A DNA stretch of 64,000 bases from assembly GCF_041740695.1 (NCBI RefSeq), contig NZ_JBGSLK010000006.1, positions 23,639 through 87,638 on the forward strand, read 5' to 3'. The position numbers and the translations under genes are program-made. Origin of the DNA: Haliscomenobacter sp. Its GTDB lineage: Bacteria > Bacteroidota > Bacteroidia > Chitinophagales > Saprospiraceae. The notes below the pieces were generated by a model that saw nothing but the letters and a program-made list of their open reading frames with translations, was not told the origin of the DNA and made no database searches. This document shows positions 31,041 through 62,517 of this stretch, piece after piece; within the stretch, counting starts at the first letter, position 1, and each line of letters begins with the position of its first letter.

Positions 31041-32960
31041 TTAAGCCTGTTCTTCTTTTTTATCCGTCTTGAGCATGTCCAACAATCTCAAGCCCAGCAT
31101 ACCGCCGATGGCACCATTGCCACCAGCACCACCTTCACCGGTGATGAGTACGTCCGGGATGATTTTAACTTTTTCCTGCCCAATCGTTTCCATCACTTTC
31201 ATCTTGGTAAAGTTGTCGCCCCCCATCGCTTCTACGGCGAGGCGGTATGCTTCGGCGCTAGACTGACCCACGGCTAGAGTCTTTTCAGCTTCCGCTTTAC
31301 CAGTGAGTTCAATTTTTTCGGCTTCGGCCTGCGCCATCAGTCTCACCTTTTCAGATTCGGCAGCAGCACTCATTTTGGTACGTTCGGCGTCGGCCGAGGC
31401 GATCATCTTGGTGCGTTCCGCTTCTGCTGAGGCGGCAATTTTTACCCCATTCGCTTCACCGGTCGATTTTTTCACGGCAGCATCGGCGATGCGTTCGGCG
31501 ATCAATACACCCTGATCGGCTTGGACGATCTGCTTTTGGATGTCGGCAATGGCGGTCTCTTTTTCAAGGGCCTGCCGGGTTTCCTGAGCCATTTTCTGGG
31601 TGTCGTAAGTCACCTTTTGTTCTTCGGCCAACTTGCGGTCGGTCAGTGTTTTCATCAGCGAATCGGGCGGTACGATGTCGCCAATCAGGGTGTCCACCCC
31701 GTGTACGTTGTATTCTTCCAGTACCTGGCCAATGTGTCGTTTTGCTGAATCCTGGCGGTCTTTACGCGAGGTCAGGAACGAGATCACATCGGCATCCTGG
31801 GCCGAGTTGCGGAAGTAGTTGCCAATGGTCGGTTCCAGTACCTGGCTGACCAGGTTGTGCATGCTACCAAAGCGAGCGATTACCTTGGGTGCCTCGGTGG
31901 CCGGGATGTGAATGATCTGCGACACATCGAGGTTGAAAGGGAAACCGTCTTTGGAACGTACTGTAATGGTAGACAAATGTTTGTCCAACATGTGTGACTC
32001 AGTGCGGGCGGTAGCCCAGTTGAGTACCAAGTTGGTGGTGGGTACCAATTCCACCTTATACAAATATTTATTAACGGGGTATTTACCAGGGCCAAGGGGT
32101 TCTGCCCAAACGCCTTTTTGGCCTTTGGACACAATGTTACCGTGACGGAATTCGTCGCCACTGAGGTCGACACCTTCTTTACCGTAGAAAGAGATGACTA
32201 CCCCCACGTTGCCGATCGGAATTTGCGTCATTTCATGTTCTTCAATTTGTGCAAACCAGGGGTTGAGGTTGTACGAACCTGCCAGGAGCACCTGCGGTTG
32301 TAAACCTTTGTTGCCGCCGCCGCGCAAAAAGGCATCGGCGTCCTGGAAGTTGTTGTGGTCGAGGACTTCGCGTCCGGCGATTTGTCCCATTTCAATCGGC
32401 GCACCATCCAGGGTCGTGATGACGCCCAGCATGTTTTCCTTGATTTGGTTCATCGGCGCCAATACAAGGTCGAACACGAAGGTATTGATCCTGTAAACCC
32501 CGGTAGTAATGTAGGCGGTTTGACGGCCTTTTTGACCACCGTTGCGGATGAAGGCGGCAGCGTCTTGGTAGGCGTCGCAATCTACACGTTTGCCCAGGAT
32601 CGAGTTGGTCGGCAATTCGGCGCCATCTTTAGCGATTAACAAACCAATTTGCCCGGGAGGAATCACGGTCAGTGGCTGTAGGTTGATTTCGTATTGCCAA
32701 ATCCAGTACCAGAAGTGAATTCCCGGGGCCAGGGTTTGGGCCTGGAAACCCGCTTCGCCATCAACCGCGATGATCCGGTTGGGCGGTAGTTCTTTCTTTT
32801 CGCCAAAAAGCGAAAACTTCAGTGTGACGAGTCCGATTTTGTCTTCCGGCACCAGAATAATTCCCAGCAGCCTGAACCAAAAACGGTAAGTGAGCAAAAA
32901 AATCAAAATGGCGAGGAAGATGCCACCCCACCATAAGGCAATCATACCAATAGGGTTCAT
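31041..32960 (-). CDS. flotillin / SPFH (band 7) domain protein with a C-terminal Ala/Glu-rich coiled-coil repeat
   Basis: It has N-terminal TM helices and an SPFH core. The C-terminus has the repeats 'AEAERTKMIASADAERTKMSAAAESEK...AEAEK'. Confidence 0.8.
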   Translation of the reverse strand: MNPIGMIALWWGGIFLAILIFLLTYRFWFRLLGIILVPEDKIGLVTLKFSLFGEKKELPPNRIIAVDGEAGFQAQTLAPGIHFWYWIWQYEINLQPLTVIPPGQIGLLIAKDGAELPTNSILGKRVDCDAYQDAAAFIRNGGQKGRQTAYITTGVYRINTFVFDLVLAPMNQIKENMLGVITTLDGAPIEMGQIAGREVLDHNNFQDADAFLRGGGNKGLQPQVLLAGSYNLNPWFAQIEEHEMTQIPIGNVGVVISFYGKEGVDLSGDEFRHGNIVSKGQKGVWAEPLGPGKYPVNKYLYKVELVPTTNLVLNWATARTESHMLDKHLSTITVRSKDGFPFNLDVSQIIHIPATEAPKVIARFGSMHNLVSQVLEPTIGNYFRNSAQDADVISFLTSRKDRQDSAKRHIGQVLEEYNVHGVDTLIGDIVPPDSLMKTLTDRKLAEEQKVTYDTQKMAQETRQALEKETAIADIQKQIVQADQGVLIAERIADAAVKKSTGEANGVKIAASAEAERTKMIASADAERTKMSAAAESEKVRLMAQAEAEKIELTGKAEAEKTLAVGQSSAEAYRLAVEAMGGDNFTKMKVMETIGQEKVKIIPDVLITGEGGAGGNGAIGGMLGLRLLDMLKTDKKEEQA

Positions 32961-33112
32961 GTTAAAAATTTTGAGTGTTTGTTATTTTTTGGTTTTGCTG
33001 ATCGTATGTTGAATTGCGATCATAGGGCAAGTATGGGGGTGGAAGGAGAAGATTTGCTATTTTATTCGATGACGCCGGATTGGAAAGCGATGAAGGTGGG
33101 GGAAATGGGGGT

Positions 33113-33982
33113 CTAGAAGATTTGGGTTTGTATAAAGATTTGAAAGGATCGATTTATGATGGGCTGAAACTCCTGTTCTATAAATGGCAAAAGGATGGTA
33201 TCAAAGTTGGATACGATGTTGATGTATACGAATGAGTATTCTACATTAGGCTTTCTTCCGTCAAATATTCTTTTAAAAATAAGGTTCATTTGGCGTTGAA
33301 ATTGATCAGGAGTGAGGGGTTCTATAGGGTTCAAAAGCTCTATCAATTGTTTGTTGAGGTCATGAAAAAATTGATTGATGATTGTTTGCCGCCGAATTCT
33401 CAACCCCTCACGGTTTAAGTTGTAAACATCAATGCTTATGTTACCAGAGTTGCTTTTTCCATGCAAAAACCCATCCTGATCTAAATATAAATGATCCAAA
33501 GGATCTACTATTTCTGGATTCAGCAAGAGAGGCTTCTCAGCTTGCATGGCTTCATGTAAAATCGAATAATGAGCGACATCGCTTGGATGGTTCAAAAGTC
33601 GAATTCCCGCAATTGGAAAGCGATTCCCTTTAGCACCTTTCCCATTGCAATTTTGACAAGCTAAAAGGAGATTTGACCATTCATTGCCCAGCCAATAATA
33701 ACCTTGATGGGTTTCTCCTGCTTTTAGGTCTTGTTGATCTAATTTTGCTTTAGGTCGGTAATGTTCTACCTGTAGAGGGGCGCTGTGGGTAATAGTGGAT
33801 TCACAATAGGCGCATTTATGGTGATAAATCTTGGATAAGGCAGTTTTGACCGGGGGGTGTTTGTAATTCCTGATGTACATACTTCCGTCTTGTGCCGCAA
33901 CAGCGGCAAGTGTTTGCTGTTGAGCAGTCTTTTGAGTAAGGTGACGTGGAATTGCCTCGAAGTCCTTATGTACTTTGATCAT
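33113..33982 (-). CDS. HNH endonuclease (TIGR02646-like), PtuB-like
   Basis: The HNH motifs are 'CAYCE...H(x)YRPK' and 'LLACQNCN..KG'. It overlaps the upstream ATPase gene by 4 bp. The local sequence is AT-rich. Confidence 0.65.
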   Translation of the reverse strand: MIKVHKDFEAIPRHLTQKTAQQQTLAAVAAQDGSMYIRNYKHPPVKTALSKIYHHKCAYCESTITHSAPLQVEHYRPKAKLDQQDLKAGETHQGYYWLGNEWSNLLLACQNCNGKGAKGNRFPIAGIRLLNHPSDVAHYSILHEAMQAEKPLLLNPEIVDPLDHLYLDQDGFLHGKSNSGNISIDVYNLNREGLRIRRQTIINQFFHDLNKQLIELLNPIEPLTPDQFQRQMNLIFKRIFDGRKPNVEYSFVYINIVSNFDTILLPFIEQEFQPIINRSFQIFIQTQIF

Positions 33983-35145
33983 TTCAATGCTTGCGCGAGC
34001 TTTTTTAAACGATTTTTAATTTCTTCATTTGCCATCGCTTCTTCGAAAGAGTCTTCAGTGAGTAAATCTTTCGGGCCAGTATTTGCCGTGGGAATAATTT
34101 CCTCAAGGTCAAAAATAGGTGAGGTAAGCAAGCTATTGGGCAGCAGCCTTGTCAAGTCAATATCCAATTTTTCAACAGTAATACCTGCTTCACTGCTTTG
34201 GTGTACTTTTAATACTACACTTTCTTTTGGTGCACCTAAAAGTGGGATGGGGCTGTGGGTGCTGGCGATGAACTGGATTTTTGGGAAAATTTCAGACAGA
34301 AGGCCGGGCAGGGCTTTTTGCCAGGTGGGGTGAAGGTGGACGTCGAGTTCGTCGATTAGGACGATGCCTTCTAATTGTTCCGGAGTACTAATTTCAGGTT
34401 GAGTATTAAATAGACGGATCACCATGTCTCCAATCATTGCAATAATATTACGATTACCTGAAGCCAATTGATTGAAGTTTTTTGCAGTATTAAGCTTTTC
34501 TCCAAGATCATCTTTTTCATAGAAAAAAACTTTGTCTTTTGCTACATCGACTTCTATCTTCTCAATATTGGGCATAAGTCGAAGGAATAAGCTTTTAATG
34601 GCTTCAACTCTTTTTTTGAGAAGGTTGACAAGCTTTTCGTCTTTATACATAAGTTCTGGCAAAGAACTTCTATAAGTCATCACCCTTAATTCTGGGTCAA
34701 TATCTAATAAGATGCCATCAGAGTTGAACAAACTGTATGATTGAGCACTTTTTTCCTCGCCAAAAACACTCACATTGAGTCTGGATGCGCCATATGCTAA
34801 AGTTTTTCGAATTAGATCGTCATCAGATGGTAAATCATTAACACCTGCAGATGCACCATCAAGTAGTCCCGTTGTAGCTTTGAAGTAAGATGATTTTCCA
34901 TGTCTTAAACCTATATTAATATCAAATTCGCCATCTTCTAAAATCAGTTTTTTATCTCTATTCCCAAACAACCCCACAAACAACGCCTGCAACACACTCG
35001 TCTTACCCCCTCCATTTTTCCCCGTCAAAAAAATCCACTTGGTATCAGCAGGAATACCTTCCACTGAGGTGTCTTTGATGCCTCGAAAGCCTTCGATGTG
35101 AAAAGAAGTAATGCCAAAGCTGGGACCGTTGCTCATATTGGTCAA
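33979..35145 (-). CDS. ABC/SMC-like AAA ATPase (AAA_15/AAA_21 type), PtuA-like
   Basis: The Walker A is 'LTGKNGGGKTSVLQALF'. The ABC-signature-like motif is 'LASGNRNII'. The Walker B is 'IVLIDELDVHLHP'. The H-loop is 'IASTHSP'. Confidence 0.65.
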   Translation of the reverse strand: MTNMSNGPSFGITSFHIEGFRGIKDTSVEGIPADTKWIFLTGKNGGGKTSVLQALFVGLFGNRDKKLILEDGEFDINIGLRHGKSSYFKATTGLLDGASAGVNDLPSDDDLIRKTLAYGASRLNVSVFGEEKSAQSYSLFNSDGILLDIDPELRVMTYRSSLPELMYKDEKLVNLLKKRVEAIKSLFLRLMPNIEKIEVDVAKDKVFFYEKDDLGEKLNTAKNFNQLASGNRNIIAMIGDMVIRLFNTQPEISTPEQLEGIVLIDELDVHLHPTWQKALPGLLSEIFPKIQFIASTHSPIPLLGAPKESVVLKVHQSSEAGITVEKLDIDLTRLLPNSLLTSPIFDLEEIIPTANTGPKDLLTEDSFEEAMANEEIKNRLKKLAQALK

Positions 35146-35190
35146 ATTTTACCACTAAAGTACGCCCTTTTTGGGAAAAAGGAAAGTGAG

Positions 35191-36069
35191 TTAATACTTC
35201 CGCCTCTTCCGCCACTCCTCCAAAATATTCAAATCCTGCTCATTCTTAATTAAGGTATGCAAATGAGGCGGAAGCTGCTCCTTGAGATCAGTTTCAGCCA
35301 AAGCGCTGGCGGGCAATTGTTCAAACAACAAAAGGCTGATCCAATCCAATAACTCGCTGGTGGAAGGCCGCTTTTTTAAACCCGTCACTTCGCGCAGCGC
35401 ATAAAACAATTGCAGGGCGTTGTTGAGCAATTCCTCGCGGATATTGGGAAAATGCACGTGGACAATGTCCAACATGGTAGCTTTATCCGGGAAACGGATG
35501 TAGTGGAAAAGGCAGCGCCGCAGGAAGGCATCCGGCAATTCTTTTTCGTTGTTGGAAGTGATGATGACGATGGGGCGGTTCACCGCTTTGATGGTTTGTT
35601 GCAGCTCGTACACATAAAACTCCATGCGGTCCAGTTCCAGCAATAAGTCATTGGGGAACTCGATGTCGGCTTTGTCAATTTCGTCGATGAGCAGTACCAC
35701 TGATTCGTCGGCGGTGAACGCTTCCCAGAGTTTGCCCTTTTTGATGTAGTGGCTGATGTCGTCTACACCCTCTTTGCCCAATTGGGAGTCGCGCAGGCGC
35801 GATACTGCGTCGTACTCATACAGGCCTTGTTGGGCCAAGGTAGTCGATTTGATGTGCCAAGTCAGCAGCTTTTTACCCAGCGCATTGGCAATCTCGTGGG
35901 CCAGTAGGGTTTTGCCCGTGCCCGGCTCGCCTTTAACCAGTAAGGGGCGTTGAAGATAAATGGCCGCATTGACAGCTATTTGCAATTCTGAGGTGGCGAC
36001 GTAAGAGGATGTTCCTTGAAATGACATAGCAGCAGTTAATTTTAGGGTTCCAGATTCCCCATCAGGCAC
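35191..36069 (-). CDS. MoxR-family AAA+ ATPase
   Basis: The Walker A is 'GEPGTGKT'. The Walker B is 'VLLIDEIDKA'. The sensor region is 'VIITSNNEKELP'. The track ORF uses a GTG start at 36069, and an alternative ATG start lies at 36027. Confidence 0.8.
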   Translation of the reverse strand: MPDGESGTLKLTAAMSFQGTSSYVATSELQIAVNAAIYLQRPLLVKGEPGTGKTLLAHEIANALGKKLLTWHIKSTTLAQQGLYEYDAVSRLRDSQLGKEGVDDISHYIKKGKLWEAFTADESVVLLIDEIDKADIEFPNDLLLELDRMEFYVYELQQTIKAVNRPIVIITSNNEKELPDAFLRRCLFHYIRFPDKATMLDIVHVHFPNIREELLNNALQLFYALREVTGLKKRPSTSELLDWISLLLFEQLPASALAETDLKEQLPPHLHTLIKNEQDLNILEEWRKRRKY

Positions 36070-36120
36070 CTCGGCTTCGCTCGGCGACCGATGGGGAATC
36101 TGGAACCCTAAAATTAACTG
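36034..36120. repeat. 30-bp perfect inverted repeat (CAGTTAATTTTAGGGTTCCAGATTCCCCATC) with a 26-nt GC-rich spacer
   Basis: The arms lie at 36034-36063 and 36090-36120. They sit in the divergent region between the MoxR gene and nqrA. Confidence 0.85.
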
Positions 36121-36243
36121 TTGTCGTGGATTTGCTCGAAAATATTTTTATGTACACTAGGAAAGAATATTTTTTTTACATTTGGAATGAATTGAAATTT
36201 TCATTTTGTTTTGTTGCGCTGCGCAAAATGCTAACCGAAAGAC

Positions 36244-50716: not shown

Positions 50717-51655
50717 CTACAAATTAAACCGATACCCTAATAAACATTCTAACCCAAATGAATTATTACTGGCCAGTTGCTGGAGGTTATAGCCACCCAA
50801 TATTCCGATCCGAAGTTTTCCATCTTGTAGAATTCCATCTTTGAGAATTACCCCGGCCTGTAGCGAGACTTGCCCCCCCGAAGCATAGGATACCCCCGTC
50901 CAAAAGGTATCTTCTAATTCATAGTTGAGATTGATGGAGTATCCGAGCAGATTTGGTTCTGAAAAATGCAGCCAGATCGAAGGCTCGAGGTAGGAAAAAT
51001 CATACGGGATACGGAACCCAACGAAGGTATTGGCTGCAAAAACACGATTGAGATGACCAATGGTGTTGGCTGAACTGCTGGGAATTTTACTGCGAATCAA
51101 TTGATTGGCGGCTAACCCAAAGAAAAACCAGGTTTCATCGTAATCAAAACGATAATGTGAAGTATAAACCATACCAAAACCAGCATTGAAGCGACCTACA
51201 TTGTTGAAATCAACAATTGCTTGAGGGTCATCGGCATCCGCCACAACTGCACGATTGGCTGCAAATTGATATTGCTGGAAGCTGGTAGACAAACCAAAAG
51301 TGATTTGATCATCTGATCGCAAGCCCAATTCCATTTTATAAGCATAAGTCAATGCAAGACTGTTGGTGGTGAATTGACCTACCTCATCGTGTTGTAAAAA
51401 ACCGCCCAGGCTTAACTTGCGATGAATGGCTGGCACATGGATAAATGCTTGAGCAGTGGCAGGGGCACCAGAAAAACCAAGCCATTGCTGGCGATAAAAT
51501 GCACCGAACTCCATGAAGTCTTCAGCTGAAGTAAGCCCGGGATTGTAGATAAAGTCGGTGGATCCCATCGGTGAACGATAAGGAAGCTGTTGCGCTCCCA
51601 GTGTAGTACTTAAAAATAGAGCACAGCATATATAAACTGCATTTAGATTTTGCAT
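50717..51655 (-). CDS. T9SS PorP/SprF-family membrane protein (type-B CTD partner)
   Basis: It has a signal peptide and the PorP/SprF-like N-terminal region 'GFSGAPATAQAF'. It lies immediately downstream of a gene with a type-B CTD. Confidence 0.75.
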   Translation of the reverse strand: MQNLNAVYICCALFLSTTLGAQQLPYRSPMGSTDFIYNPGLTSAEDFMEFGAFYRQQWLGFSGAPATAQAFIHVPAIHRKLSLGGFLQHDEVGQFTTNSLALTYAYKMELGLRSDDQITFGLSTSFQQYQFAANRAVVADADDPQAIVDFNNVGRFNAGFGMVYTSHYRFDYDETWFFFGLAANQLIRSKIPSSSANTIGHLNRVFAANTFVGFRIPYDFSYLEPSIWLHFSEPNLLGYSINLNYELEDTFWTGVSYASGGQVSLQAGVILKDGILQDGKLRIGILGGYNLQQLASNNSFGLECLLGYRFNL

Positions 51656-51656
51656 T

Positions 51657-54600
51657 TCAATTGCGGATTATGGTGAGTGAATTTTTGAGAACAACTTCAT
51701 CAAGTTCCAAAACATAGTAATATACACCAGGAGGAAGTGGCCTGCCATTGTAGCTTCCATCCCAGTCATTTTGATAATTATCTTGTTTAAAAACAATCCC
51801 GCCCCAACGATTGAATACCGTTATTTTAGTGGTGTTGAACAACTCCAGGTCATTGAATTTTAGAACATCATTTTTCCCATCGCCATTAGGGGTGAATAAG
51901 TTGATCGGTTTGACCAATTCAGTGATATTGGAATAAACGCCAACAAAAACAGTATCCCTAAGTATACATTTGTTGTCATCCTGAATGCTTACAACAAAGT
52001 AGGTGCTATCCTTGGGTGCTACTTCAGGATTGGAGATTGTTTCGTTGCTTAATTCAAATTCAGGTGTAGTCCATTGATACATCTTACCTCCGCTTGCTTG
52101 TAGTTTAAGTTTCCGGCCAACCAGTATGACGGTATCTTTTCCAGCGGAGCCATTTACTTTGCGTACCTCGATTTGGGCATAGGCTGTATCGGTACCACAA
52201 CGGTTTTCACTTATATAGCCATAAGTAGTATTAATATTGGGTTTGACCCGAATTTTATCCGCTGTCAATGGTTTACTCGTATTGCTAGGGTCTAACCAAC
52301 GCAGCGGACTGCCACCTTTTCCAACAAGTGTCGTAGAATCGCCCTGGCAAATAAAACTGACAGTTCTGTCAATTGTCGCTACGGGTAAATTGAGTGCAAT
52401 AACCCTAGTAGAGCCTTGTCCAATACACCCGTTTCGATCAGTAACAGTAACTTGATACAAACCGGCGGTGGCCGCAGTGATTAACCCTGTAGTGGAGCCG
52501 GTATTCCATTTGAAAATTTGCCCCCAGGAGCGCACATCTAAGGCCAGGTTTTCATTGGGACAAATGGTATCCGTGGGTACCAAGCTCACTACTGGGTTGG
52601 CCCATAAAATCAAACGGGTACTATCTGTCGTTTGGCAACCAAATTCATTGCTCACTTTAACCCGGTATACTTTGGCGTCTTCAACCGTAATACTACCCAC
52701 TTGGGCGCCAGTATTCCATTCATACATTTTTCCAGAACTCCTAACATCGAGGGTAGTTGTGGTGCCGGAACAAATGCGCAAGCTATCCGGTAGTGAAGGA
52801 TTGGGGTTGTTGTAAAAAATTGTGCGCAGGCTATCCAACGTTTCACAGCCAAATTTATCGAGGTAATTAACGGTATAAAGGCCAGCTGTACTCAGTTGAA
52901 TCATTGGGTCTGTGCTTCCATTGCTCCATGAGATGACCTTACCCAGTGAACTTGCATCAACACCAATGGTTTTGCCAAGACAGGCCGTAAGTGGGTTGGG
53001 CCATTGACGGGCAATGGTTGGTCTATTCTCAAGTAATACGCTATCAACAGCTGAGCAACCCTGTTCATTACTGACCATTACACTGACGCGCCCTGCTTGG
53101 GCTACTTCAATTGTTCCAGTGCTGGCACCACTGCTCCAGCTAAATTTGGTCCCCAGTTTTGACACATCCAAGGTAACTGCCTTATTCGGGCAAAGGATCA
53201 TTTTATCGGGAAGGTCTATTTTGGGGTTTGGAGCTATCGTGATGGTCGTAGAATCCAGAACGGAACAACCCTCTGGATTGGCAATAGATACACTATACAT
53301 TCCCGATTTGCGTGGAACAATTGAGGCGCTGGTTTCGCCAGTGCTCCATAGATACTTTAGAGGACCAGTACCCGCCACAATTTTTTTCGTATCTACTTCA
53401 CAATCATTGATGACTCTGGGTAAAGTACGTTGAGGAGCTGCCTTGAAGGTTATGGTTACACTATCGATAGATTGACAATTGGCGATGTTGCTTACCGTCA
53501 CGGAATACAAACCAGATTTTGCGGATTCTATAGACGGTAATTTTTCATCGGTACTCCAGCGGTAACGGTAACCTACGGAGTCGACAACGCTTAGTTTGGC
53601 AATTTTTCCATTACAAAGAGATTGATCCGGCCCCAGGTTAACGACTGGTGCGGGTAAAAAGGCCACGCTAGAGCTGTCTTTTATCACGCAACCTTCAGCG
53701 TTCGTGAGTGTAACAATATAAAGTCCACTCTTTTTGGGTGAAATAATTGCAGTTGTATCGCCAGAACTCCAGTTGAATTTTATAGCCGTGGTGACGGGAT
53801 TCAAAGTAATCGACTCTGATGCGCAACGGTTAACCTCAGAAGGGAGATTACTAATCGGGAGTGCTGCAGTGGCGACTTCAGTACTTGTTGTGCTTCTACA
53901 CCCTGCTGAATTACTGGCGTTGACTTGATAGATTCCTGCTTTCCGTACTGTGATACTGGCAGCCGTATCTCCGGTGCTCCAGCGGAAAAATTCTGCACTA
54001 CCACCAGGTTTTAGTACCAGTGAGTCACCAAAGCACAAATTGGTTCTTAGCGGAAGTGAGACCATAGGTGGGTCCACAAAAGTGACTTTGATGCTATCTA
54101 TACTGCTGCAATTGGTGGCATCGGTTAATTTAAGTTTATACCAGCCGGGATTTTTCACTGCAAGGAAATAGGTGCTGTCTCCGGTGTTCCATTGATAAGT
54201 AGTTGCAAGGTTTTGAGGAGCACTAAGTTGAAGGCTATCACCTTTGCAGATATCCCGATTGGCACCCAATTCTAAAGCCGGACGGGCATTTACAACCAAG
54301 TCCACTCCTTTTTCATTGGTGCAACCAAAAGCGGTGCTTACGACAACACTGTAACGACCTGCTTTACTTACTGCGATAAAATTGGCTTTGGAACCGGTAC
54401 TCCAGCTAAAGCTTGCACTTTTTACATTGGTGCTCACTTCAATCCGGGCAGTTTCCCCCTGGCAAATTTGTGGAGAAGAGGAGCTGAGGTTTACTTCTGG
54501 AATAATTTTTAGGTCTTTTATTTCAATGCTTTGTGTTTTTATACACCCTTTTAAAGAAACCGTTAACGTGTAAACTCCACCCGTTTCAGTGCTTAGTTTT

Positions 54601-55232
54601 GATCGACTGCTGATCACCCCCAAACTGTCGGTTGACCATTGAAATTTTGCACCAATGACATCAATTTGTGGATTAAGTTCAATTTGAGGTTCATTGCAGG
54701 TGATGGTGTCCAGGGCTGGTAGTGTAAAATTGAAGTTTGGAGAGATGGCGTTTAACTGCTCGAGCCGATCGATCGCCAGGTTTTGGAAACCAGGATTTTG
54801 ACTGTTTTCTATTCCTTCAAATTTAGTCGTGATCAAATCGTCTTCAATGGTACACCCATTTGGTAAGATGATGCGAAATTTGAGAGGTTCATTGGACAAA
54901 AAACCTTCATCTCCCTCGGCTGTTTTGCCATAGACTTGCAGGATCACCGATTTTTCCTGCCAGGTAATTTGGCCAGCGCACCTTAAGGTATCCGCAGATT
55001 CAAAAACGACAGAAATGATGCTGCCCTTAGGAAGGGCTTGCCCGTCCAGCTTGGGTACTCCCACTGGTATAAGGATAATGTGAGCATTCGGATTGGGTAA
55101 AACGCAGTCTTGTTGGGCGTAGCCCATAATATACAACCCTAACGCCAGCAAGGTTAGGTATAGTTTCCTCCATTTGAACATGTCAAAAGGTATTTGAGAT
55201 GAAAAGAAGTGTGGAGCAAATGCTTTATTCAC
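51657..55232 (-). CDS. large surface protein with about 13 tandem Ig-like repeats and a T9SS type-B C-terminal sorting domain (gliding-motility-associated CTD)
   Basis: The C-terminus 'FTPNGDGKNDVLKFNDLELF...VFNRWGGIVFKQDNYQNDWDGSYNGRPLPPGVYYYVLEL' matches the type-B CTD. It has repeated units of about 75 aa with conserved C...W..G..Y.V patterns. The likely signal-peptide start is the internal Met 'MFKWRKLYLTLLAL'. Confidence 0.75.
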   Translation of the reverse strand: MNKAFAPHFFSSQIPFDMFKWRKLYLTLLALGLYIMGYAQQDCVLPNPNAHIILIPVGVPKLDGQALPKGSIISVVFESADTLRCAGQITWQEKSVILQVYGKTAEGDEGFLSNEPLKFRIILPNGCTIEDDLITTKFEGIENSQNPGFQNLAIDRLEQLNAISPNFNFTLPALDTITCNEPQIELNPQIDVIGAKFQWSTDSLGVISSRSKLSTETGGVYTLTVSLKGCIKTQSIEIKDLKIIPEVNLSSSSPQICQGETARIEVSTNVKSASFSWSTGSKANFIAVSKAGRYSVVVSTAFGCTNEKGVDLVVNARPALELGANRDICKGDSLQLSAPQNLATTYQWNTGDSTYFLAVKNPGWYKLKLTDATNCSSIDSIKVTFVDPPMVSLPLRTNLCFGDSLVLKPGGSAEFFRWSTGDTAASITVRKAGIYQVNASNSAGCRSTTSTEVATAALPISNLPSEVNRCASESITLNPVTTAIKFNWSSGDTTAIISPKKSGLYIVTLTNAEGCVIKDSSSVAFLPAPVVNLGPDQSLCNGKIAKLSVVDSVGYRYRWSTDEKLPSIESAKSGLYSVTVSNIANCQSIDSVTITFKAAPQRTLPRVINDCEVDTKKIVAGTGPLKYLWSTGETSASIVPRKSGMYSVSIANPEGCSVLDSTTITIAPNPKIDLPDKMILCPNKAVTLDVSKLGTKFSWSSGASTGTIEVAQAGRVSVMVSNEQGCSAVDSVLLENRPTIARQWPNPLTACLGKTIGVDASSLGKVISWSNGSTDPMIQLSTAGLYTVNYLDKFGCETLDSLRTIFYNNPNPSLPDSLRICSGTTTTLDVRSSGKMYEWNTGAQVGSITVEDAKVYRVKVSNEFGCQTTDSTRLILWANPVVSLVPTDTICPNENLALDVRSWGQIFKWNTGSTTGLITAATAGLYQVTVTDRNGCIGQGSTRVIALNLPVATIDRTVSFICQGDSTTLVGKGGSPLRWLDPSNTSKPLTADKIRVKPNINTTYGYISENRCGTDTAYAQIEVRKVNGSAGKDTVILVGRKLKLQASGGKMYQWTTPEFELSNETISNPEVAPKDSTYFVVSIQDDNKCILRDTVFVGVYSNITELVKPINLFTPNGDGKNDVLKFNDLELFNTTKITVFNRWGGIVFKQDNYQNDWDGSYNGRPLPPGVYYYVLELDEVVLKNSLTIIRN

Positions 55233-55256
55233 ATTTGCTCCACGATAAAACTCAAA

Positions 55257-58200
55257 TTACTGGATGATGAGTCGATGGGTTTGACTGTAATCAGCAAAGG
55301 TTACCTTGACCAAGTAGACACCTGGATTGATGTCTGCCAGTTGTAGCTCTTCTTTGTGACGCCCCTTATCGAGTTTCAATTTAAGCTCTGGGCGAATTAA
55401 GCGCCCCTGGACGTCAGTTACAGCGATAATCACCTGACTGCTCTGGATCAGATCAAGATGCAACCAAGTGCTCTCTTGAGTTGGATTAGGTGCCAATAAT
55501 ACCTTTGACCGGAGCAGAGGAAGTGACACTCTACTCGTTTTTGCCCAAATCAAATCATTGGTACGATAAGTCAAAGAGGGCAATGAAACGTTGAGATCCT
55601 CCAACTTGAGCGTACTGCCATCAGGTGTTACAAAATGAACTTCAAATGCTTCATTTTCCCAGAGGCCATCCTTTTCACGAGTATAGGGATCATCACCCCA
55701 AATGATAACCTGCAAATTTTGACCAGTGAATGTTTGTTGTCCACGTAGCACGCCTTGTTTATCCCAAACTTTAACTACAGATTCGATCGGGAGCTGAGTT
55801 AATAATTCTTTATAAAACAGAATAGACGCGTTGTGTGCGGTAATGACTTGGGCTTCGTCACCGCGTAGTTCGGGTACAATTGGGTCTCTCAACGCAGTAC
55901 AAGTTGCCCCACCACAATTCAGCAATAACTGACGTTTGGTTCCGTTGCGGATTTGTACCTGAAAGGCCTGCCCTGGTTGCATGCAAATCTCATCAGGAGA
56001 AGAAAAGCCTGGAATATAGGTATTGGTCAAACTTTTAACCGCTGTAATGCCTAAGGCAGGGTCGGAAAATATTTCACCAACAGGTCGGTTTACGTCACAG
56101 AAGTACGGCACAATCTGCCAACCTTCCCGGAGTGGAATGGACACCTGATTTGGGTCAATTCTGCTACCTGGAATGGAAAGGGTGACATCATTTTTGGCTT
56201 TGACAAAATAGCCCTGTAAGATGTCCCAATTGCCCAAATCGTTGGAAAATCCTGGAACGAATGAAGCTGATATAGACTTCACCAACTGAATTTGATCAAT
56301 AATAGGCTGGAAAACCACCTCCATATCGGGAGCCTGCGGAGTAACCTTTGAACTAATCAGATTCCAGCCCTTCTTCAGGAGAATGTCATGGGTGGCATTG
56401 TTTCCGGAGCGAAGTTTACCAATTGCACTGAGTGCCTGGTTTTTGAATTTATCCGTTGCGTCAACAAACGCATTGCCAATGGCAGTGCCAATAGAGAGAT
56501 AGTCAGCGTTTACGTCGTAAACTTGTTGATCTGCGGCACGCCAAACTTTGAGGACCAAAACTTCTCCATCCTTGAACCCTTCTTGTTCATTGGGCGTACT
56601 TGGGTCATCTCCATTTACGGTGATCAAGGTGTTTTTGTCTTCCCAGATTTTTTTGCCAGCAATAACCAGCGTACCGTTTGATGCTTTATAGAAAAAGCCA
56701 AAATAATCTCCAACTTGTAATGGATTTCCTCCGACCTCTGCATCAACATTGCGTAGCACCGCAACCGTATGACTCAGTAAAGAAGAAGTAGGTTCACCCC
56801 AAGGAGGAGTACCACCACCTGTGCCCCCAGAACCGCCTGCTTCTTGATTGATCTGAATGCTAACCCGGTTTCCACTACATGAAAGTGAAACTGTTCCAGA
56901 TCTTGCTTGGGTTGAATTATTAGGATCAACTTGAATTCTTAACAAATTTGTACCTAATAAGGTGGTTACTCTAAGCCACGAAACGCTTGGTGTTGCCACA
57001 TTCCAAGTTGAATTGGCCGTAACTGTTACCGTTTGTTCGCCTCCTGTTTTGGAGAAATTTAGCGTGCTAGGACTTACGGATAGCTGGCAGCTCTGTTGGC
57101 CACATGGAATTCGGACACAACAGTATCTCCAGGTCTGGCTGATTGGATCGTAGTAGCGCACCGAAATGATGCGATCAACGCAAGGTGTAGGCGCAGGCAC
57201 ACTGATTACTCTTACATTTTGGTTGAGTACGGCACCATTGTTGTTGTCGTCTAGCCAAACAATCTGGTTGGCATTGCCATCATCCAGTGATAGTTCATAA
57301 TTGGAGCCAGTAACATTGTACACCAAAGATTGGCAGTTAAACGGATCACAAATTACGATGCGTTGGCAGCAGAAATACCAGGTGCCATTCTTATAGTAAC
57401 GAACACTAATGGTGCGGGTAATGCAGTTGCCATTGCTTGGTGGTCGTACAAACGTTGAGATCAAACCTTCACCGATGTCTTCATTGGTCTCGTCAATGGT
57501 CCAGGTTTGATTGGAGGTGCCTGGCTCATCGAGCGTGAATTGGTATCCTTGCTCTGAATATTTGTAAATAATTGGATTACAATTAAAAGGATTGCACAAC
57601 CAAATTTTTCTGCAACAAGTATAGACCTGCCCATTCAAAGTGTATTGAACAACAAAGGTTCGGACTTGACAGTCGGCCAATGGCCGCAACCCCCCAATGG
57701 TCACCCCTGTTCCCAATTGCTGCCCGGTTTCAAGTACAGACCAACTGATATTTGAAGCCCCAGCTTGACTCAATGTAAACTGAAAACCAGTATTTTCAAA
57801 GTACCGGTAGGCAATGAGGTTACAATTGTCGTTGGTGCAACTCGGTGGGGGTGTTCCACATTTGATCAATACACAACAATATCGCCAGGTACGACTGATC
57901 GGATCATAGTAACGTACTGAAATGAGTCGGTCACGGCAAGGTGTCGGAAGTGGAACAACGGTCGTCGGAGTACCTGTAACCAAAACCTGGCTGTTGTTGT
58001 CGTCATCCAGCCAGGAGATTTGCTCCGCGTTGGTATCATCCAGGGTAAGCTCATATCCATTGGATTGGGTGACGTAACGAATGACATTACAGGACAATGG
58101 ATCACAGAGTCGAATCCGCAAACAACAAAAATACCAGATTCCATTTTTGAAATAACGGACACTGATCGTATAATTCACACAATTACTAGGCGGCCGTACA

Positions 58201-61200
58201 TATTGGGTATTTAAACCAGTTCCAATGTCTTGTCCCGTTTCATCTATGGTCCAGCTTTGACTAGTGGTGCCTGGCTCCGTCAAAGTAAATTGGAACCCTT
58301 GATTAGGGACGTAACGATAAACGATGGGGGTGCAATCCAGAGGGTTACACAACCAAATACTCCGGCAACAAATGTACCAGCGGCCATTCCAAAAATAACG
58401 TACAGATATTGTTCTACGAATACATGTTCCCGGAACAGGCAACAAGGATGATGCATTGCCAGTTCCAAGATTTTGACCAGTATCATCCACAATCCAGCTG
58501 ATGTTGCTCGCACCTGGTTTGTTTAAGTCAAATTGATATCCACTGGATTCGACGTTTGATACGAAGCGATAGTCAAAGTCGTAGCAATCAAAAGGATTAC
58601 ACAACCAGATGGTCCGGCAGCAAATGTACCATCGGCCATTCCAATAGTATTTGACGGTGATGGTGCGGAAAACGCAAGTACCAGGTCGTGGCAGTAAATT
58701 TGAGGTTGAGCCGCTGCCCAAGCCTTGGCCTGTATCATCTACAATCCAGCTGATGTTGCTGGCTCCGGTACGATTGAGCCGAAACTGGAACCCATCAGAA
58801 GTTTGACTGTACAAATAATCGAAATCAAAACATTCAAAAGGGTTGCTGACATAGACGTTGTAACAGCAGTATTCTAAACAACCGCTGGCATTGATGTATG
58901 GAAAACAAACTTCATAGTTGCCAACAGAAGGAAAAGTATACTCGAAATTATTGCCAGTCGCGTAGCTGATTTCTTGGTTGTTGACCAACCATCTTCGACC
59001 TGGAGCTATACTTTGGGTACTGCTAAAGGCAAATTTCAAACTTCCTCCCGTACCAGTATAACGGTAGGAAATTGAACCACAATTGTAGTTTTTTTGAGCT
59101 TGTTCACAACAATTAACAGAAAGCTGAAAAGCACCTGCGGAGCTGACAAATTGGCCATCTACTACAATGTAATAAGTACCTGGATCAAGGGTTATTGTAA
59201 TGGCCTCCTGGTTAGTGGTGCGATTGTCCGAAGAACTTTCGGCAACACATTGACTTGTAGCGCCAAATTGAATATTGTTACATTCTCTCAATAAAAAAAG
59301 GTCCAGATCCAACCCTAAAGTTTGGATGGCCATATTGATGGTAACTGGAGTACGTTGGCTCAACGTAAACTTATAGGCTTTTTCTGGCCCAACAAAAGTC
59401 GATGCAGTAAGACAATTGTAGGAACTAAGAATGTTTGTTTCAGCAACAGTAGATCCACTCAAGGTAGTTCCACAATTTATCGGAGTTGCTTTTTCACAAA
59501 TACTCCCGTTTTGCCCACAACTTACGGAGATCTGGAAGGCCCCCATCGAAGTGGTAAATTGCCCATCAACGATGATGTAATAGGTTCCAGGATCGAGGAT
59601 TCGAGTGATGTTTTCCCGATTGGAAATGCGATTGTCCGATGAACTTTCGGCAATACAGATGTCACCTGAAACTTTGAAAACGTCATTCTCTCCTGAAAAA
59701 TAGTTACAAACATCACCTAAAAGGAACAAATCAAGATCTAAACCTGCATTTTGGATGGCTAGGTCAATACTTACCGAAGTCCGCTGGGTTAAGACCAATT
59801 TGTATACCTTTTCAGGACCCAATAGGGTAAATCCTCCTAAACAGTCGTATTCCCGGAGCAAATTACTCTCGTTGACTGTAGTGCCGTTTAAGGTGTTGCC
59901 ACAACTGATGGGCATTGCCTTAGAACAAATACTTCCACCTTCATTGCCTCCACAAACCAGTGATAGCTGGAATGCACCTTGGGAGTAAGAAAATTGCCCG
60001 TCAATAACAATGTAATAGGTGCCAGGGCCTAAGGTTTTAGTAATATTCTCGCGGTTGGAACTGCGATTGTCCGAAGAACTCTCAGCAATGCAGATGTCAC
60101 CGGAAACTTTAAAAACATCATTCTCTCCTGAAAAATAGTTACAAACATCTCCCATTAAAAATAAATCCAAATCAAGACCGGAGGTTTGAATGGCCAAAGC
60201 GATTGAAACTGTTGTGGTTTGAGTTAAAGTGAATTTATACACTTTCTCTGGGCCAACTAAAGTAAACCCACCCAAACAGTCATAATTTTGCAGTTGATTG
60301 GTTCCGCCTACAGTTGTGCTATTGACCGTATTGCCACAACTGATGGGAACGGCTTTGGAACAAATACTCCCGCCACCTTCTCCACCGCCTCCGGTATTGC
60401 CACAATTTAAAGACAATTGGAAGGAACCCCTGGAGGTAGAAAATTGACCATCAATGACGATATAATAAGTACCTGGGTTTAAGGTTTTTGAAATAACCTC
60501 TTTATTGGACAATCGGTTATCACTTGAACTTTCAGCAATACATGAATTGTTACCACACCCGGAAAGCAAAAAAAGATCAAGGTCAAGACCTTGAGCCAGT
60601 ATACTCATGTCCAAAGTTACCGTAGTCGTTTGGCTGAGTGTAAAGGAATAAACCTTTTCTGGGCCAACTAAAGTAGACGCTGTTAAACAATTGTAGCTGC
60701 TTATGATATTGGTTTCGGAATTGGTACTGCCAGAAGTAGTACTCCCACAATTGATAGGAGTGGCTTTTTCACAAATATTACTCGGAGAACCCCCTCCTCC
60801 TTCGCCACCCCCGCCAGTGTTTACATTGCTGCAGCTCAACGACAATTGAAAGGAGCCTCTGGAAGTGCTATATTGACCGTCTACCACAATGTAATAAGTT
60901 CCTTCTTCCAGATAAGTGCTGATGTTTTCCAGATTGGAACTGCGATTGTCTGCACTACTTTCAGCAACACAATTACGGACTTCCCCGCTGCAGCCATCAA
61001 ATATAAATACATCCAAATCAAGCCCTAATGCCTGGATAGCCATTCTGACATTAACCGTCGTTGCTTGGCTAAGGGTAAAAGAATATACTTTGTCTGGACC
61101 GACTAAACTAGAAGGTAAACAATTGTAACTGGATATCGAATTTGTTTCCGAAGAAGTACTGCTATTTATGGTGTTCCCACAACTAATCGGGATAGCCTTT

Positions 61201-61628: not shown

Positions 61629-62179
61629 CTTATTTCTGCAAATCGCTTTACTTGCAGCTTTTCTTTGATCCTTCGTTTGTGGGTGTTTACTGTATTTGTT
61701 GAGATGAATAAGCGCTCGGAGATTTGTTTGCTACTCAATCCTCTTCGAATCAACTGCACGATTTCTTGCTCACGAAGGCTCAGCTGTTTTAGTTTATCCT
61801 GGATGTTTTTTTTGGATAAATTATTCAGATTGAGTTGAATAAGCCGCAGCGTGGCGATCATTTGTGCTTCGGTAATTGGATCAATGAGTATGGCTTCAGG
61901 TTGAGTTATCCAGGCCTTATCCAGGGCATCCAGATTGAGATCACTTGAATAATACAACAAGCGGAACGAAATGTGATCCTGCAAATCCTGGATCCATTTA
62001 CTGTATTTCAAATCTATTGGTAATGGTGCTACCAATAAATCGGGCTGTCGCTCCTGCCAAGTTTCGGTGTCTTGGAGTTGCTCAATCGGAGCTTCCCAAA
62101 ACATCTTACTATGGCTCTTTAGCAAAACTTTCCAATTGGAATGAAATTCCACCGAGGCATTAAGCATTAATATTCGCAT
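61625..62179 (-). CDS. LuxR/GerE-family HTH transcriptional regulator with an atypical N-terminal domain
   Basis: The C-terminal HTH is 'LSLREQEIVQLIRRGLSSKQISERLFISTNTVNTHKRRIKEKL'. Its stop overlaps the start of the giant cargo gene by 4 nt. Confidence 0.65.
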   Translation of the reverse strand: MRILMLNASVEFHSNWKVLLKSHSKMFWEAPIEQLQDTETWQERQPDLLVAPLPIDLKYSKWIQDLQDHISFRLLYYSSDLNLDALDKAWITQPEAILIDPITEAQMIATLRLIQLNLNNLSKKNIQDKLKQLSLREQEIVQLIRRGLSSKQISERLFISTNTVNTHKRRIKEKLQVKRFAEIS

Positions 62180-62517
62180 AAGAATGAGGTGCGATCGTTG
62201 GAAACGACTGCAATAATTATTTTGTTAGTAAATTTTAAGTATTGACAATTAGTTTGTTAATCTTTGGTGTGTTAGACTTTGGTTTTAAAAATTCTACCTT
62301 ACTCAAGATCGAGATGTAAGATTAATGGGAAATTACAGGAATATTATTTTTGGGATATACAATAATTAGAGTCAATACATAATGGTAAAACTACAATGTT
62401 CAATTTACACCGTTTGTCACTATTTTTGGTGAATTTGAATGAATTAAAATTAAAATAATTTTTGAGGGTTTATAGAGACGAGGCTTAGCTCGCCTCCATA
62501 AATTTCCATGGGACCAA

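What the first reader, a model, noticed from the sequence alone, without database searches (positions are those of the whole stretch)
33113..36120. AT-rich three-gene islet: MoxR-like AAA+ ATPase + PtuA-like ABC/SMC ATPase + PtuB-like HNH nuclease (Septu-type defense candidate with an extra ATPase)
The two distal genes (33979-35145 ATPase; 33113-33982 HNH) overlap by 4 bp. They carry the Walker A/B, signature and H-loop motifs of an AAA_15/21 ATPase and a CxxC...H / CxxC HNH that I read as TIGR02646-like; that family call is unverified. This is the gene order and domain content of Septu (PtuA-PtuB). Only 45 nt upstream on the same strand is a short MoxR-family AAA+ ATPase (35191-36069). It lacks the usual VWA partner, and to my knowledge MoxR is not a described Septu component. 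The islet is markedly more AT-rich than the flanking flotillin and nqr genes. It is wedged between two housekeeping loci and is preceded by a 30-bp perfect inverted repeat. This is consistent with a horizontally acquired, possibly novel defense variant.
Basis: partly seen in the sequence, partly recalled or inferred. Interest (0 to 1): 0.8.

Follow-up and report, generated by a model that had tools for sequence, protein, structure and literature searches.

The report
Two-gene Septu cassette beside core gene
The region holds an ordinary two-gene Septu (PtuA ATPase + PtuB HNH nuclease) anti-phage cassette that is present or absent between closely related Haliscomenobacter strains. The "extra" MoxR-like ATPase is a conserved resident chromosomal gene that merely borders the insertion site.

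Summary
All three ORFs exist as described. The two distal genes are a clear stand-alone Septu type I pair (PADLOC PtuA E = 1.3e-82, PtuB E = 3.7e-66, 4-bp overlap, intact Walker A/B, H-loop and HNH/CxxC motifs).

The three-gene reading is refuted:
- **Composition.** The AAA+ gene has host-like composition (GC3 0.62, second highest of 44 window genes). ptuA and ptuB have the two lowest values (0.36, 0.39).
- **Conservation.** The AAA+ protein is 92-98% identical in relatives whose PtuA is only 63-78% identical.
- **No co-occurrence.** AAA+ orthologues lack any PtuAB within 10 kb in 80 of 80 loci from other genomes. In 59 of those 80 loci a VWA_CoxE gene lies in the locus.
- **Empty site.** The identical AAA+ protein lies on two near-identical contigs, one with PtuAB (L116) and one without (L117).
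- **Variable spacer.** In relatives, other genes separate AAA+ from ptuA, including an opposite-strand gene. The closest PtuA relatives (75-78% identical) have no AAA+ upstream.

The cassette is window 33106-35190: a conserved leader of about 50 nt, then ptuA and ptuB. Its left edge abuts the AAA+ stop codon because a 252-aa lipoprotein gene present in relatives is missing here. The inverted repeat is real, but it lies in the AAA+/nqrA spacer and is not an islet boundary.

Verdict: a new member of a known system, of low interest.

The parts
33106..35190 (-). Septu (ptuAB) cassette as delimited by comparison with an empty site
   Evidence: blastn of the PtuAB-free contig L117 against the window: homology runs to window 35191 (the AAA+ stop codon) and resumes at window 33105. 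The occupied relative L116 shares the cassette ends.
35137..35190 (-). Conserved cassette leader upstream of ptuA, a probable own promoter region
   Evidence: Alignment A3. About 50 nt (TTTCCTTTTTCC.AAAAAG..CGTAyTTTAG...AAAATTT) are conserved in 8 cassettes whatever gene lies upstream. Homology to the different upstream contexts ends here. The promoter role is inferred.
33979..35136 (-). ptuA: ABC-type (AAA_15/AAA_21) ATPase of Septu, 385 aa, short form
   Evidence: PADLOC PtuA PDLC00287 E = 1.3e-82. Pfam AAA_15 1.5e-15 and AAA_21 3.3e-14. Solved PtuA chains 8ee4 1.5e-17 and 22bu 2.2e-19. Motifs found. Exact match to WP_373548259.1.
33113..33982 (-). ptuB: HNH nuclease of Septu, 289 aa
   Evidence: PADLOC PtuB PDLC00316 E = 3.7e-66, full length. 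Pfam HNH 25.3 bits, above 21.4. The profile of 7 orthologues hits solved PtuB/TIGR02646 chains first, best E = 3.8e-5. CAYC, EH and CQNC are invariant.
35191..36027 (-). NOT part of the system: resident MoxR-family (AAA_5) AAA+ ATPase that forms the left flank of the insertion site
   Evidence: GC3 0.62. 92-98% identical in relatives. Its 90%-identity cluster has 90 members including H. hydrossis. 0/80 orthologue loci have PtuAB. Occurs with and without the cassette.
31041..32960 (-). NOT part of the system: flotillin-like SPFH/Band_7 core gene that forms the right flank
   Evidence: Pfam Band_7 6.6e-23. 95-97% identical in relatives. 100% identical between occupied L116 and empty L117. Relatives at 70-82% identity lack PtuAB upstream.
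36030..36123 (-). Long hairpin in the AAA+ leader / nqrA divergent spacer, unrelated to the cassette
   Evidence: the repeat finder I1. RNA fold -67.3 kcal/mol, z = -11.4. The homologous spacers in L083 and L085 do not fold significantly. Single copy in the window and absent from 95 loci. No Rfam match.

Best explanation
Window 33106-35190 is a self-contained two-gene Septu type I anti-phage cassette: a short conserved leader, ptuA and ptuB. It sits in a variable interval of the Haliscomenobacter chromosome between a resident MoxR-family AAA+ gene and a flotillin gene.

It carries no mobility genes and no flanking repeats. Its presence or absence and its allelic diversity between strains are best explained by homologous recombination through the highly conserved flanks (inferred).

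In this strain the cassette abuts the AAA+ stop codon because the 252-aa lipoprotein gene that normally follows AAA+ is missing. That creates the appearance of a three-gene operon.

Mechanism, inferred from characterised homologues and not shown here: PtuA, an ABC ATPase, oligomerises and holds the PtuB HNH nuclease in check. A phage cue, probably read by the hypervariable central insert of PtuA (aa ~81-200), licenses PtuB to cut nucleic acid (DNA nicking and/or tRNA-Tyr cleavage in studied systems). This stops phage replication in an abortive-infection-like way. The AAA+ protein plays no part.
For: **Identity (shown)**
- PADLOC PtuA E = 1.3e-82 and PtuB E = 3.7e-66.
- Pfam AAA_15, AAA_21 and HNH above gathering scores.
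- Matches to solved Septu and retron PtuA chains and PtuB chains.
- Intact catalytic motifs.
- 4-bp gene overlap.

**Two genes, not three (shown)**
- GC3 of ptuA and ptuB is the lowest of 44 window genes. AAA+ is the second highest.
- Against relatives, AAA+ is 92-98% identical, NqrA 92% and flotillin 95-97%. PtuA is 63-78% and PtuB 58-65%.
- 0/80 AAA+ orthologue loci hold PtuAB.
- The identical AAA+ protein P0130 occurs on L116 (with ptuAB) and L117 (without). The flanking DNA is 97-98% identical and the flotillin 100% identical.
- The H. hydrossis type strain has AAA+ without ptuAB.
- The content between AAA+ and ptuA varies: a 252-aa gene, a 509-aa AAA_35 ATPase, an opposite-strand DPRP gene, or DPRP plus HTTM.
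- L081, L082 and L091 carry ptuAB with no AAA+.

**Own leader (shown)**
- A leader of about 50 nt is conserved in all cassettes.

**Mechanism (literature)**
- Septu is a stand-alone PtuAB ATPase-nuclease pair with hexameric PtuA. Its DNA nicking is inhibited by ATP, and a phage tail fibre sensitises it (PMC12819146).
- Septu cleaves tRNA-Tyr, and the Walker A/B and HNH residues are essential (PMC13096335).
Against: - No experiment shows anti-phage activity for this allele.
- No terminator was detected in the 45-nt AAA+/ptuA gap, so read-through transcription from the AAA+ promoter cannot be excluded in this strain.
- The NCBIfam PtuA and PtuB equivalogs and TIGR02646 are all below their curated cut-offs. 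Those models are built on retron-associated proteins.
- PtuB has no single-sequence PDB hit.
- AAA+ and ptuAB lie within about 2.5 kb of each other in several related genomes. I attribute this to shared synteny within one genus.
- The recombination route of cassette gain and loss is inferred, not demonstrated.
Confidence: 0.9

Rival explanations
1. One reading: a novel three-component Septu variant in which the MoxR-like AAA+ ATPase is a functional third subunit or regulator, co-transcribed with PtuAB.
For: Same strand, a 45-nt gap and no detectable terminator between AAA+ and ptuA. AAA+ lies within about 2.5 kb upstream of ptuA in several related genomes: L083, L085, L086-L090, L110 and L116.
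Against: - 0/80 AAA+ orthologue loci have PtuAB.
- The same AAA+ protein occurs with and without ptuAB.
- Intercalated genes vary, including an opposite-strand gene.
- The closest PtuA relatives lack AAA+.
- The codon composition is at the opposite extreme.
- AAA+ is 92-98% conserved while PtuAB is 58-78%.
- In other lineages a VWA_CoxE gene is found in 59 of 80 AAA+ loci, directly adjacent in the two examined.
- The literature describes Septu as a two-gene stand-alone system, and no paper links it to MoxR.
Confidence: 0.03
2. Regulatory hitch-hiking only: the deletion that removed the lipoprotein gene placed ptuAB under read-through transcription from the AAA+ promoter in this strain. Expression is coupled, but there is no protein-level interplay.
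For: No terminator-like site in the 35146-35190 gap. In the empty site, the 56 nt that follow the lipoprotein gene in L117 contain an inverted repeat (TTCGGGTTTTGGAT...ATCCTAAAATCCGAA) that is absent from the window.
Against: The cassette keeps its own conserved leader. That leader must suffice for expression in L086-L089, where the upstream gene is on the opposite strand. The promoter and terminator scans are weak evidence for Bacteroidota.
Confidence: 0.2
3. The pair is the effector module of a type I-A retron (PtuAB with a reverse transcriptase and ncRNA) rather than stand-alone Septu.
For: PADLOC also reports ATPase_I-A (1.9e-40) and HNH_I-A (5.7e-15) hits. The best PDB matches include retron PtuA and PtuB chains.
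Against: - There is no reverse-transcriptase ORF between the flanking core genes.
- There is no retron RNA or other Rfam family.
- The retron equivalogs NF041760 (128.8 vs 500) and NF041761 (43.2 vs 150) are far below cut-off.
- The stand-alone PtuA and PtuB profiles score much higher.
- The cassette is only 2.1 kb.
Confidence: 0.01
4. The cassette is an inactive or decaying remnant rather than a working defence system.
For: A relative (L091) has PtuB truncated to 111 aa. The cassette is absent from sister strains. The signature motif has N where Ec78 PtuA has Q.
Against: Both ORFs are full length, with all catalytic motifs invariant across orthologues. The ATPase core is 75-100% conserved and only the central insert diversifies. 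That pattern indicates purifying plus diversifying selection, not decay.
Confidence: 0.05

Closest known systems
Septu type I (stand-alone PtuA + PtuB; Doron et al. 2018, cited from my own knowledge; structures 8EE4/8EE7)
   Same: The two adjacent, overlapping genes are in the order ptuA then ptuB. PtuA is an ABC/AAA_15-AAA_21 ATPase with Walker A, Walker B and H-loop. PtuB is an HNH nuclease with CxxC pairs and a helical C-terminal part. There are full-length PADLOC PtuA and PtuB matches. There is no RT and no ncRNA.
   Different: This is a short PtuA (385 aa against 465 aa for 8EE4). It lacks the roughly 197 N-terminal positions of the best-matching profile. The signature motif reads LASGNR. 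Sequence identity to solved proteins is detectable only in the motif-bearing C-terminal half. The host is a Saprospiraceae (Bacteroidota) bacterium.
Retron type I-A (Ec78/Eco7) PtuAB effector
   Same: Homologous ATPase and HNH proteins. The best PDB hits include these chains.
   Different: There is no RT, ncRNA or msDNA. It lacks the retron-specific N-terminal extension (PtuA here is 385 aa against about 550). NCBIfam equivalog scores are far below cut-off.
MoxR-family AAA+ / VWA_CoxE pairs (for the neighbouring gene only)
   Same: The AAA_5 domain is above the gathering score, and sources name the protein 'MoxR family ATPase'. A VWA_CoxE-like gene is found in 59 of 80 orthologue loci, directly adjacent in the two examined.
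   Different: There is no VWA gene in this 64-kb window or in the Saprospiraceae loci. In Haliscomenobacter the usual downstream neighbour is a 249-252-aa lipoprotein of unknown family, which is missing here. PF07726 (MoxR proper) is below threshold.

Membership tests
Septu type I (PtuA+PtuB) | PtuA: ABC-type ATPase recognised by PtuA profiles | tested here: met
   PADLOC PDLC00287 E = 1.3e-82, and 24 further PtuA profiles in the 25 listed. Pfam AAA_15 and AAA_21 above the gathering score. Solved Septu PtuA 8ee4 E = 1.5e-17.
Septu type I (PtuA+PtuB) | Intact Walker A, Walker B and H-loop in PtuA (Walker A/B essential for defence, PMC13096335) | tested here: met
   GKNGGGKT at aa 39, IVLIDE at aa 258, STHS at aa 292. 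These align with the motifs of the solved PtuA.
Septu type I (PtuA+PtuB) | PtuB: HNH nuclease recognised by PtuB profiles, with the catalytic H/N and CxxC pairs | tested here: met
   PADLOC PDLC00316 E = 3.7e-66 over aa 1-283. Pfam HNH 25.3 bits, above 21.4. C57xxC60, E73-H74 and C109xxC112-N113 are invariant in 7 orthologues. The profile hits solved PtuB chains.
Septu type I (PtuA+PtuB) | ptuA immediately followed by ptuB on the same strand (one operon), with no further required gene | tested here: met
   4-bp overlap. The pair is conserved as a unit in all relatives, whereas the neighbours vary.
Septu type I (PtuA+PtuB) | PtuA oligomer binding PtuB through the PtuA C-terminal extension and the PtuB C-terminal domain | not testable with these tools
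The only relevant data are that the PtuA C-terminus is 75-100% conserved among relatives.
Septu type I (PtuA+PtuB) | Protection against phage | not testable with these tools
   Needs heterologous expression and phage challenge.
Retron type I-A PtuAB (NCBIfam NF041760 / NF041761) | Scores at or above the equivalog cut-offs, with an adjacent RT and ncRNA | tested here: not met
   128.8 bits vs 500 and 43.2 bits vs 150. No RT ORF. No Rfam hit.
TIGR02646 (retron-system putative HNH endonuclease) | Score at or above the curated cut-off of 52.15 bits | tested here: not met
30.4 bits, E = 3.4e-7.
MoxR-family AAA+ ATPase (neighbouring gene) | AAA_5/AAA_3-type AAA+ module | tested here: met
   PF07728 AAA_5 48.2 bits, above 22. 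PF07726 AAA_3 is only 16.7 bits, below 27. The best PDB matches are midasin AAA modules. Sources name it 'MoxR family ATPase'.
MoxR-family AAA+ ATPase (neighbouring gene) | Adjacent VWA-domain partner | tested here: not met
   No VWA_CoxE homologue anywhere in the window (best tblastn E = 1.5). One is present in 59 of 80 orthologue loci elsewhere.
Hypothetical 'MoxR-Septu' three-gene system | Co-conservation of the AAA+ gene with ptuAB across genomes | tested here: not met
   0/80 AAA+ loci have PtuAB. L081, L082, L091 and L092-L095 have ptuAB without AAA+. L116 and L117 share the identical AAA+ protein, with and without ptuAB.

The most novel reading that the evidence does not exclude
In this one strain, loss of the intervening lipoprotein gene has fused the Septu cassette directly to the 3' end of the MoxR-family AAA+ gene with no terminator. 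The two could therefore be co-transcribed, and the AAA+ remodeller might have been recruited to act on the PtuA oligomer, which would be an incipient three-component Septu. A weaker version of the novel reading also stays open and is better supported. In that version, the AAA+-to-flotillin interval is a genus-specific defence hotspot free of mobility genes. Promoter-bearing ptuAB alleles with a hypervariable PtuA sensor insert would be exchanged there by flank recombination.
Probability: 0.03. Interest if true: 0.55.

Novelty: new member of a known kind. Interest (0 to 1): 0.15.

Why it matters
It mostly does not matter much. PADLOC's own PtuA and PtuB profiles match both proteins strongly, so a standard defence-system finder should detect this as canonical Septu. 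The proteins are already in RefSeq, as 'AAA family ATPase' and 'HNH endonuclease'.

The useful outcomes are three:
- It is a clean worked example of how tight spacing to a conserved neighbour can mimic a novel multi-gene system.
- It gives a precisely delimited occupied/empty-site pair for a defence cassette that has no mobility genes.
- It shows that PtuA diversification is concentrated in the central insert (aa ~81-200). If that insert is the phage-sensing surface, this would be a handle for specificity-swap experiments.

Tried and rejected
- **Structure prediction of PtuB.** I did not pursue it.
- **Single-sequence PDB search with PtuB.** It found nothing. Only the profile search worked.
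- **What NCBIfam 'MadB family AAA-type ATPase' is.** Two literature searches returned no papers. The hit is in any case far below cut-off (116.7 bits vs 475).
- **A VWA partner of the AAA+ in the window.** None found.
- **A remnant of the 252-aa lipoprotein gene in the window.** None found, best E = 0.14 elsewhere in the window.
- **Flotillin as a Septu partner.** I considered this because ptuAB-flotillin adjacency recurs. I rejected it for four reasons. Flotillin is 95-97% conserved with host-like GC3. It has no PADLOC hit. It is 100% identical with and without the cassette. It lacks PtuAB upstream in the seven relatives at 70-82% identity that have at least 5 kb of upstream sequence, and L083 and L092 have ptuAB without flotillin.
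- **The inverted repeat as an islet boundary or MITE.** I rejected this. It is single-copy, absent from 95 loci, outside the mapped cassette and not conserved as a hairpin.
- **The sigma-70 promoter scan.** It found no more sites than the shuffled controls and does not cover Bacteroidota promoters.
- **The Rfam hit to mir-253.** At E = 0.26 and 22.8 bits vs 72, it is noise.
Full report
**1. What is in the sequence**

The two distal ORFs overlap by 4 bp.

Exact-sequence look-up shows which starts the public records use. The AAA+ protein starts at the ATG at 36027 (278 aa, WP_373548260.1). The ATPase starts at the ATG at 35136 (385 aa, WP_373548259.1). The organism is a Haliscomenobacter sp. (Saprospiraceae, Bacteroidota).

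- The ATPase has Walker A GKNGGGKT, signature-like LASGNR, Walker B IVLIDE and H-loop STHS.
- The nuclease has C57xxC60, E73-H74 and C109xxC112-N113.

**2. Family assignment of the distal pair**

PADLOC profiles match both proteins strongly. PtuA (PDLC00287) matches at E = 1.3e-82. PtuB (PDLC00316) matches at E = 3.7e-66 over the full length. Nearly all other listed hits are further PtuA or PtuB profiles.

Pfam gives AAA_15, AAA_21 and HNH above their gathering scores.

PtuA matches solved Septu PtuA (8ee4, E = 1.5e-17) and retron-associated PtuA chains (E = 2.2e-19) across the signature, Walker B and H-loop region.

PtuB alone finds nothing in the PDB. A profile of seven orthologues returns PtuB / TIGR02646-family chains as its top seven hits, best E = 3.8e-5.

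The retron-specific NCBIfam equivalogs and TIGR02646 are below their curated cut-offs. No reverse transcriptase or known RNA lies nearby. The pair is therefore stand-alone Septu type I and not a retron I-A effector.

**3. Is the AAA+ gene part of it? Composition**

Only ptuA and ptuB are AT-rich. Both have GC 0.398, with GC3 0.36 and 0.39. These are the two lowest GC3 values of 44 window genes (z = -2.1 and -1.7).

The AAA+ gene has GC 0.50 and GC3 0.62, the second highest (z = +1.7). The flotillin gene is at 0.61. The "AT-rich three-gene islet" is really a two-gene islet.

**4. Is the AAA+ gene part of it? Comparative evidence from the AAA+ side**

A scan of one genome per species found at least 599 relatives. 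The best 80 are 64-79% identical and span Saprospiraceae and Alpha-, Beta- and Gammaproteobacteria.

None of these 80 loci encodes a PtuA or PtuB homologue within 10 kb. A VWA_CoxE-like gene is present in 59 of the 80 loci, and it is directly adjacent to the AAA+ gene in the two loci I examined (L045, L010). This is the classical MoxR-VWA pairing.

At 90% identity the AAA+ protein belongs to a 90-member cluster that includes the H. hydrossis type strain. Sources name it "MoxR family ATPase". PtuA and PtuB are each singletons at 90%.

**5. Comparative evidence from the PtuA side**

The closest PtuA relatives are L081 and L082 (78% and 75% identical). Together with L091 (65%), they sit behind a YCII gene and a RhuM/Fic gene and have no AAA+ gene nearby.

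Other relatives share the nqr/AAA+ neighbourhood but have different genes between AAA+ and ptuA:
- a 252-aa lipoprotein gene (L083, L116);
- a 509-aa AAA_35/AAA_22 ATPase (L085);
- an opposite-strand DPRP gene (L086-L089, L110);
- DPRP plus an HTTM gene (L090).

A more distant pair (50% identical, L092-L095) lies among T9SS cargo genes.

Against these genomes, NqrA is 92% identical, AAA+ 92-98% and flotillin 95-97%. PtuA is only 63-78% and PtuB 58-65%. PtuA similarity also does not track the AAA+ similarity. L083 has a 98% identical AAA+ but a 67% identical PtuA.

**6. The empty site**

One and the same AAA+ protein sequence (P0130) is encoded on two contigs:
- L116 reads nqr <- | -> AAA+, 252-aa gene, ptuA, ptuB, flotillin.
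- L117 reads nqr <- | -> AAA+, 252-aa gene, flotillin.

Their DNA is 97-98% identical on both sides and their flotillins are 100% identical. In L116, 2,233 bp carrying ptuAB take the place of 56 bp in L117.

Window homology to L117 stops exactly at the AAA+ stop codon (35191) and resumes at 33105, 8 nt past the ptuB stop codon. The window's cassette is therefore 33106-35190, 2,085 bp.

The H. hydrossis type strain has AAA+ plus the lipoprotein gene but no ptuAB.

Flotillin orthologues at 94% identity or more carry ptuAB upstream (L096, L110). The seven at 70-82% identity with at least 5 kb of upstream sequence have no PtuA, PtuB or AAA+ homologue. In the two of these I examined, L097 and L098, an ordinary DUF5916/CBM9 gene lies upstream of flotillin.

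**7. Why the gap is only 45 nt**

All cassettes share a conserved leader of about 50 nt immediately upstream of the ptuA ATG, whatever lies further upstream (alignment A3). In the window this leader fills the whole space up to the AAA+ stop codon.

The lipoprotein gene that separates AAA+ from the cassette in L083 and L116 is absent from the window, with no remnant. The tight spacing is therefore a junction artefact, not operon architecture.

The leader contains TAyTTTAG. From my own knowledge, this is close to the Bacteroidota -7 promoter element TAnnTTTG. In L086-L089 the upstream gene is on the other strand, so the cassette must have its own promoter (inference).

No terminator was detected in the gap. 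Read-through from AAA+ in this particular strain cannot be excluded.

**8. How it most likely works**

This part is inferred from characterised homologues.

Septu is described as a stand-alone PtuAB ATPase-nuclease pair. PtuA is an ABC ATPase that forms a hexameric, inflammasome-like assembly. PtuB is a beta-beta-alpha-Me HNH nuclease bound through its C-terminal domain to the PtuA C-terminal extension. DNA nicking is inhibited by ATP, and a phage tail fibre sensitises the system (PMC12819146, which cites Li et al. 2024).

An E. coli Septu cleaves the variable loop of tRNA-Tyr. It needs the PtuA Walker A/B residues and the PtuB H/N residues, and it behaves like abortive infection (PMC13096335).

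All of those residues are present here. I therefore propose the same logic: PtuA restrains PtuB until a phage cue releases nuclease activity.

One local observation fits a sensing role for the PtuA central insert. Among syntenic relatives, the ATPase core is 75-100% identical (aa 1-40 and 241-385), while aa 81-120 are only 17-37% identical.

**9. The inverted repeat**

It is real: 41-nt arms with a 31-bp perfect core at 36030-36123. The RNA fold is -67.3 kcal/mol (z = -11.4).

It lies upstream of the AAA+ ATG in the spacer shared with nqrA, about 0.9 kb from the cassette edge. It is single-copy and absent from 95 fetched loci. The homologous spacers of L083 and L085 are only imperfect palindromes that do not fold better than shuffled controls. 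It is a strain-specific oddity of the AAA+ leader and not an insertion scar.

**10. Verdict**

The Septu call is right.

This is a new member of a known kind, a short-form PtuA Septu in a Saprospiraceae genome. It shows strain-level presence/absence and carries no mobility genes. Interest is low (0.15).

The residual novel reading is functional recruitment of the AAA+ gene after the fusion-like juxtaposition in this strain. I put it at about 3%.

Noticed in passing
window 36030-36123: Very stable hairpin (41-nt arms, 31-bp perfect core, -67 kcal/mol, z = -11.4) immediately upstream of the AAA+ ATG, in the spacer shared with divergent nqrA. The homologous spacers in L083 and L085 are only imperfect palindromes. 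No Rfam family matches, and the function is unknown. It could occlude the translation start region of the AAA+ mRNA.
   Followed up: partly
window 35137-35195 compared with L116:8853-9611, L117:7230-7988, L083:5174-5932, L114:8859-9608: A 249-252-aa predicted lipoprotein gene (no Pfam or PADLOC family; 59% identical between H. hydrossis and L116) follows the AAA+ gene by 15-25 nt in relatives. It is completely missing from the window. It may be the lineage's functional partner of the orphan MoxR-like ATPase.
   Followed up: partly
window 33979-35136 (PtuA aa ~81-200, roughly window 34537-34896): PtuA is mosaic among syntenic relatives. The ATPase core is 75-100% identical, while the central insert is hypervariable (17-37% identical in aa 81-120). 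blastn homology between the window and L116 breaks exactly over this part.
   Followed up: partly
window 35191-36027; loci L001-L080: The AAA+ protein is unusually conserved across phyla (64-79% identical from Saprospiraceae to Proteobacteria). A VWA_CoxE-like gene is found in 59 of 80 loci, but not in the Saprospiraceae loci or in this window. It gives only a sub-threshold NCBIfam hit to 'MadB family AAA-type ATPase', for which I found no literature.
   Followed up: partly
L081:4908-5876, L082:4918-5886, L091:4907-5875: A RhuM/Fic-domain gene directly upstream of ptuAB matches PADLOC candidate defence family PDC-S23 (E = 1e-135). The interval upstream of flotillin therefore collects more than one defence-type gene in some strains.
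   Followed up: no
L085:4413-5942: A 509-aa AAA_35/AAA_22 (STAND-like) ATPase occupies the slot between AAA+ and ptuA in Haliscomenobacter sp. GCA_033763495. It has only a weak PADLOC hit (PDC-S01, E = 1.3e-4) and could be another defence gene in the same hotspot.
   Followed up: no
L091:7179-7514: In this relative ptuB is truncated to 111 aa while ptuA is intact, an example of cassette decay.
   Followed up: no
window PtuA aa 224-229 (LASGNR): The signature-motif position that is Q361 in retron Ec78 PtuA is asparagine here. In the ATPase-inactive stand-alone Septu PtuA of PMC12819146 it is leucine. ATPase competence of this allele is therefore uncertain.
   Followed up: no
proteins P0071, P0075, P0097, P0115 (relatives of PtuA): Long-form relatives (572-668 aa, 42-45% identical in the ATPase part) carry 200-300 extra N-terminal residues. 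In P0097 these include a weak, sub-threshold HNH match (19.7 bits vs 21.4), suggesting a PtuB-PtuA fusion. In P0075 they match no Pfam family. The best PADLOC profile (PDLC00287) is of this long form.
   Followed up: partly
window 50717-63966: A run of large T9SS-cargo genes (1191 aa with CHU_C; 2123 aa with PPC/BACON/Por_Secre_tail) has the next-lowest GC3 values in the window (0.40-0.42). Low GC3 alone is therefore not specific to the defence cassette.
   Followed up: no
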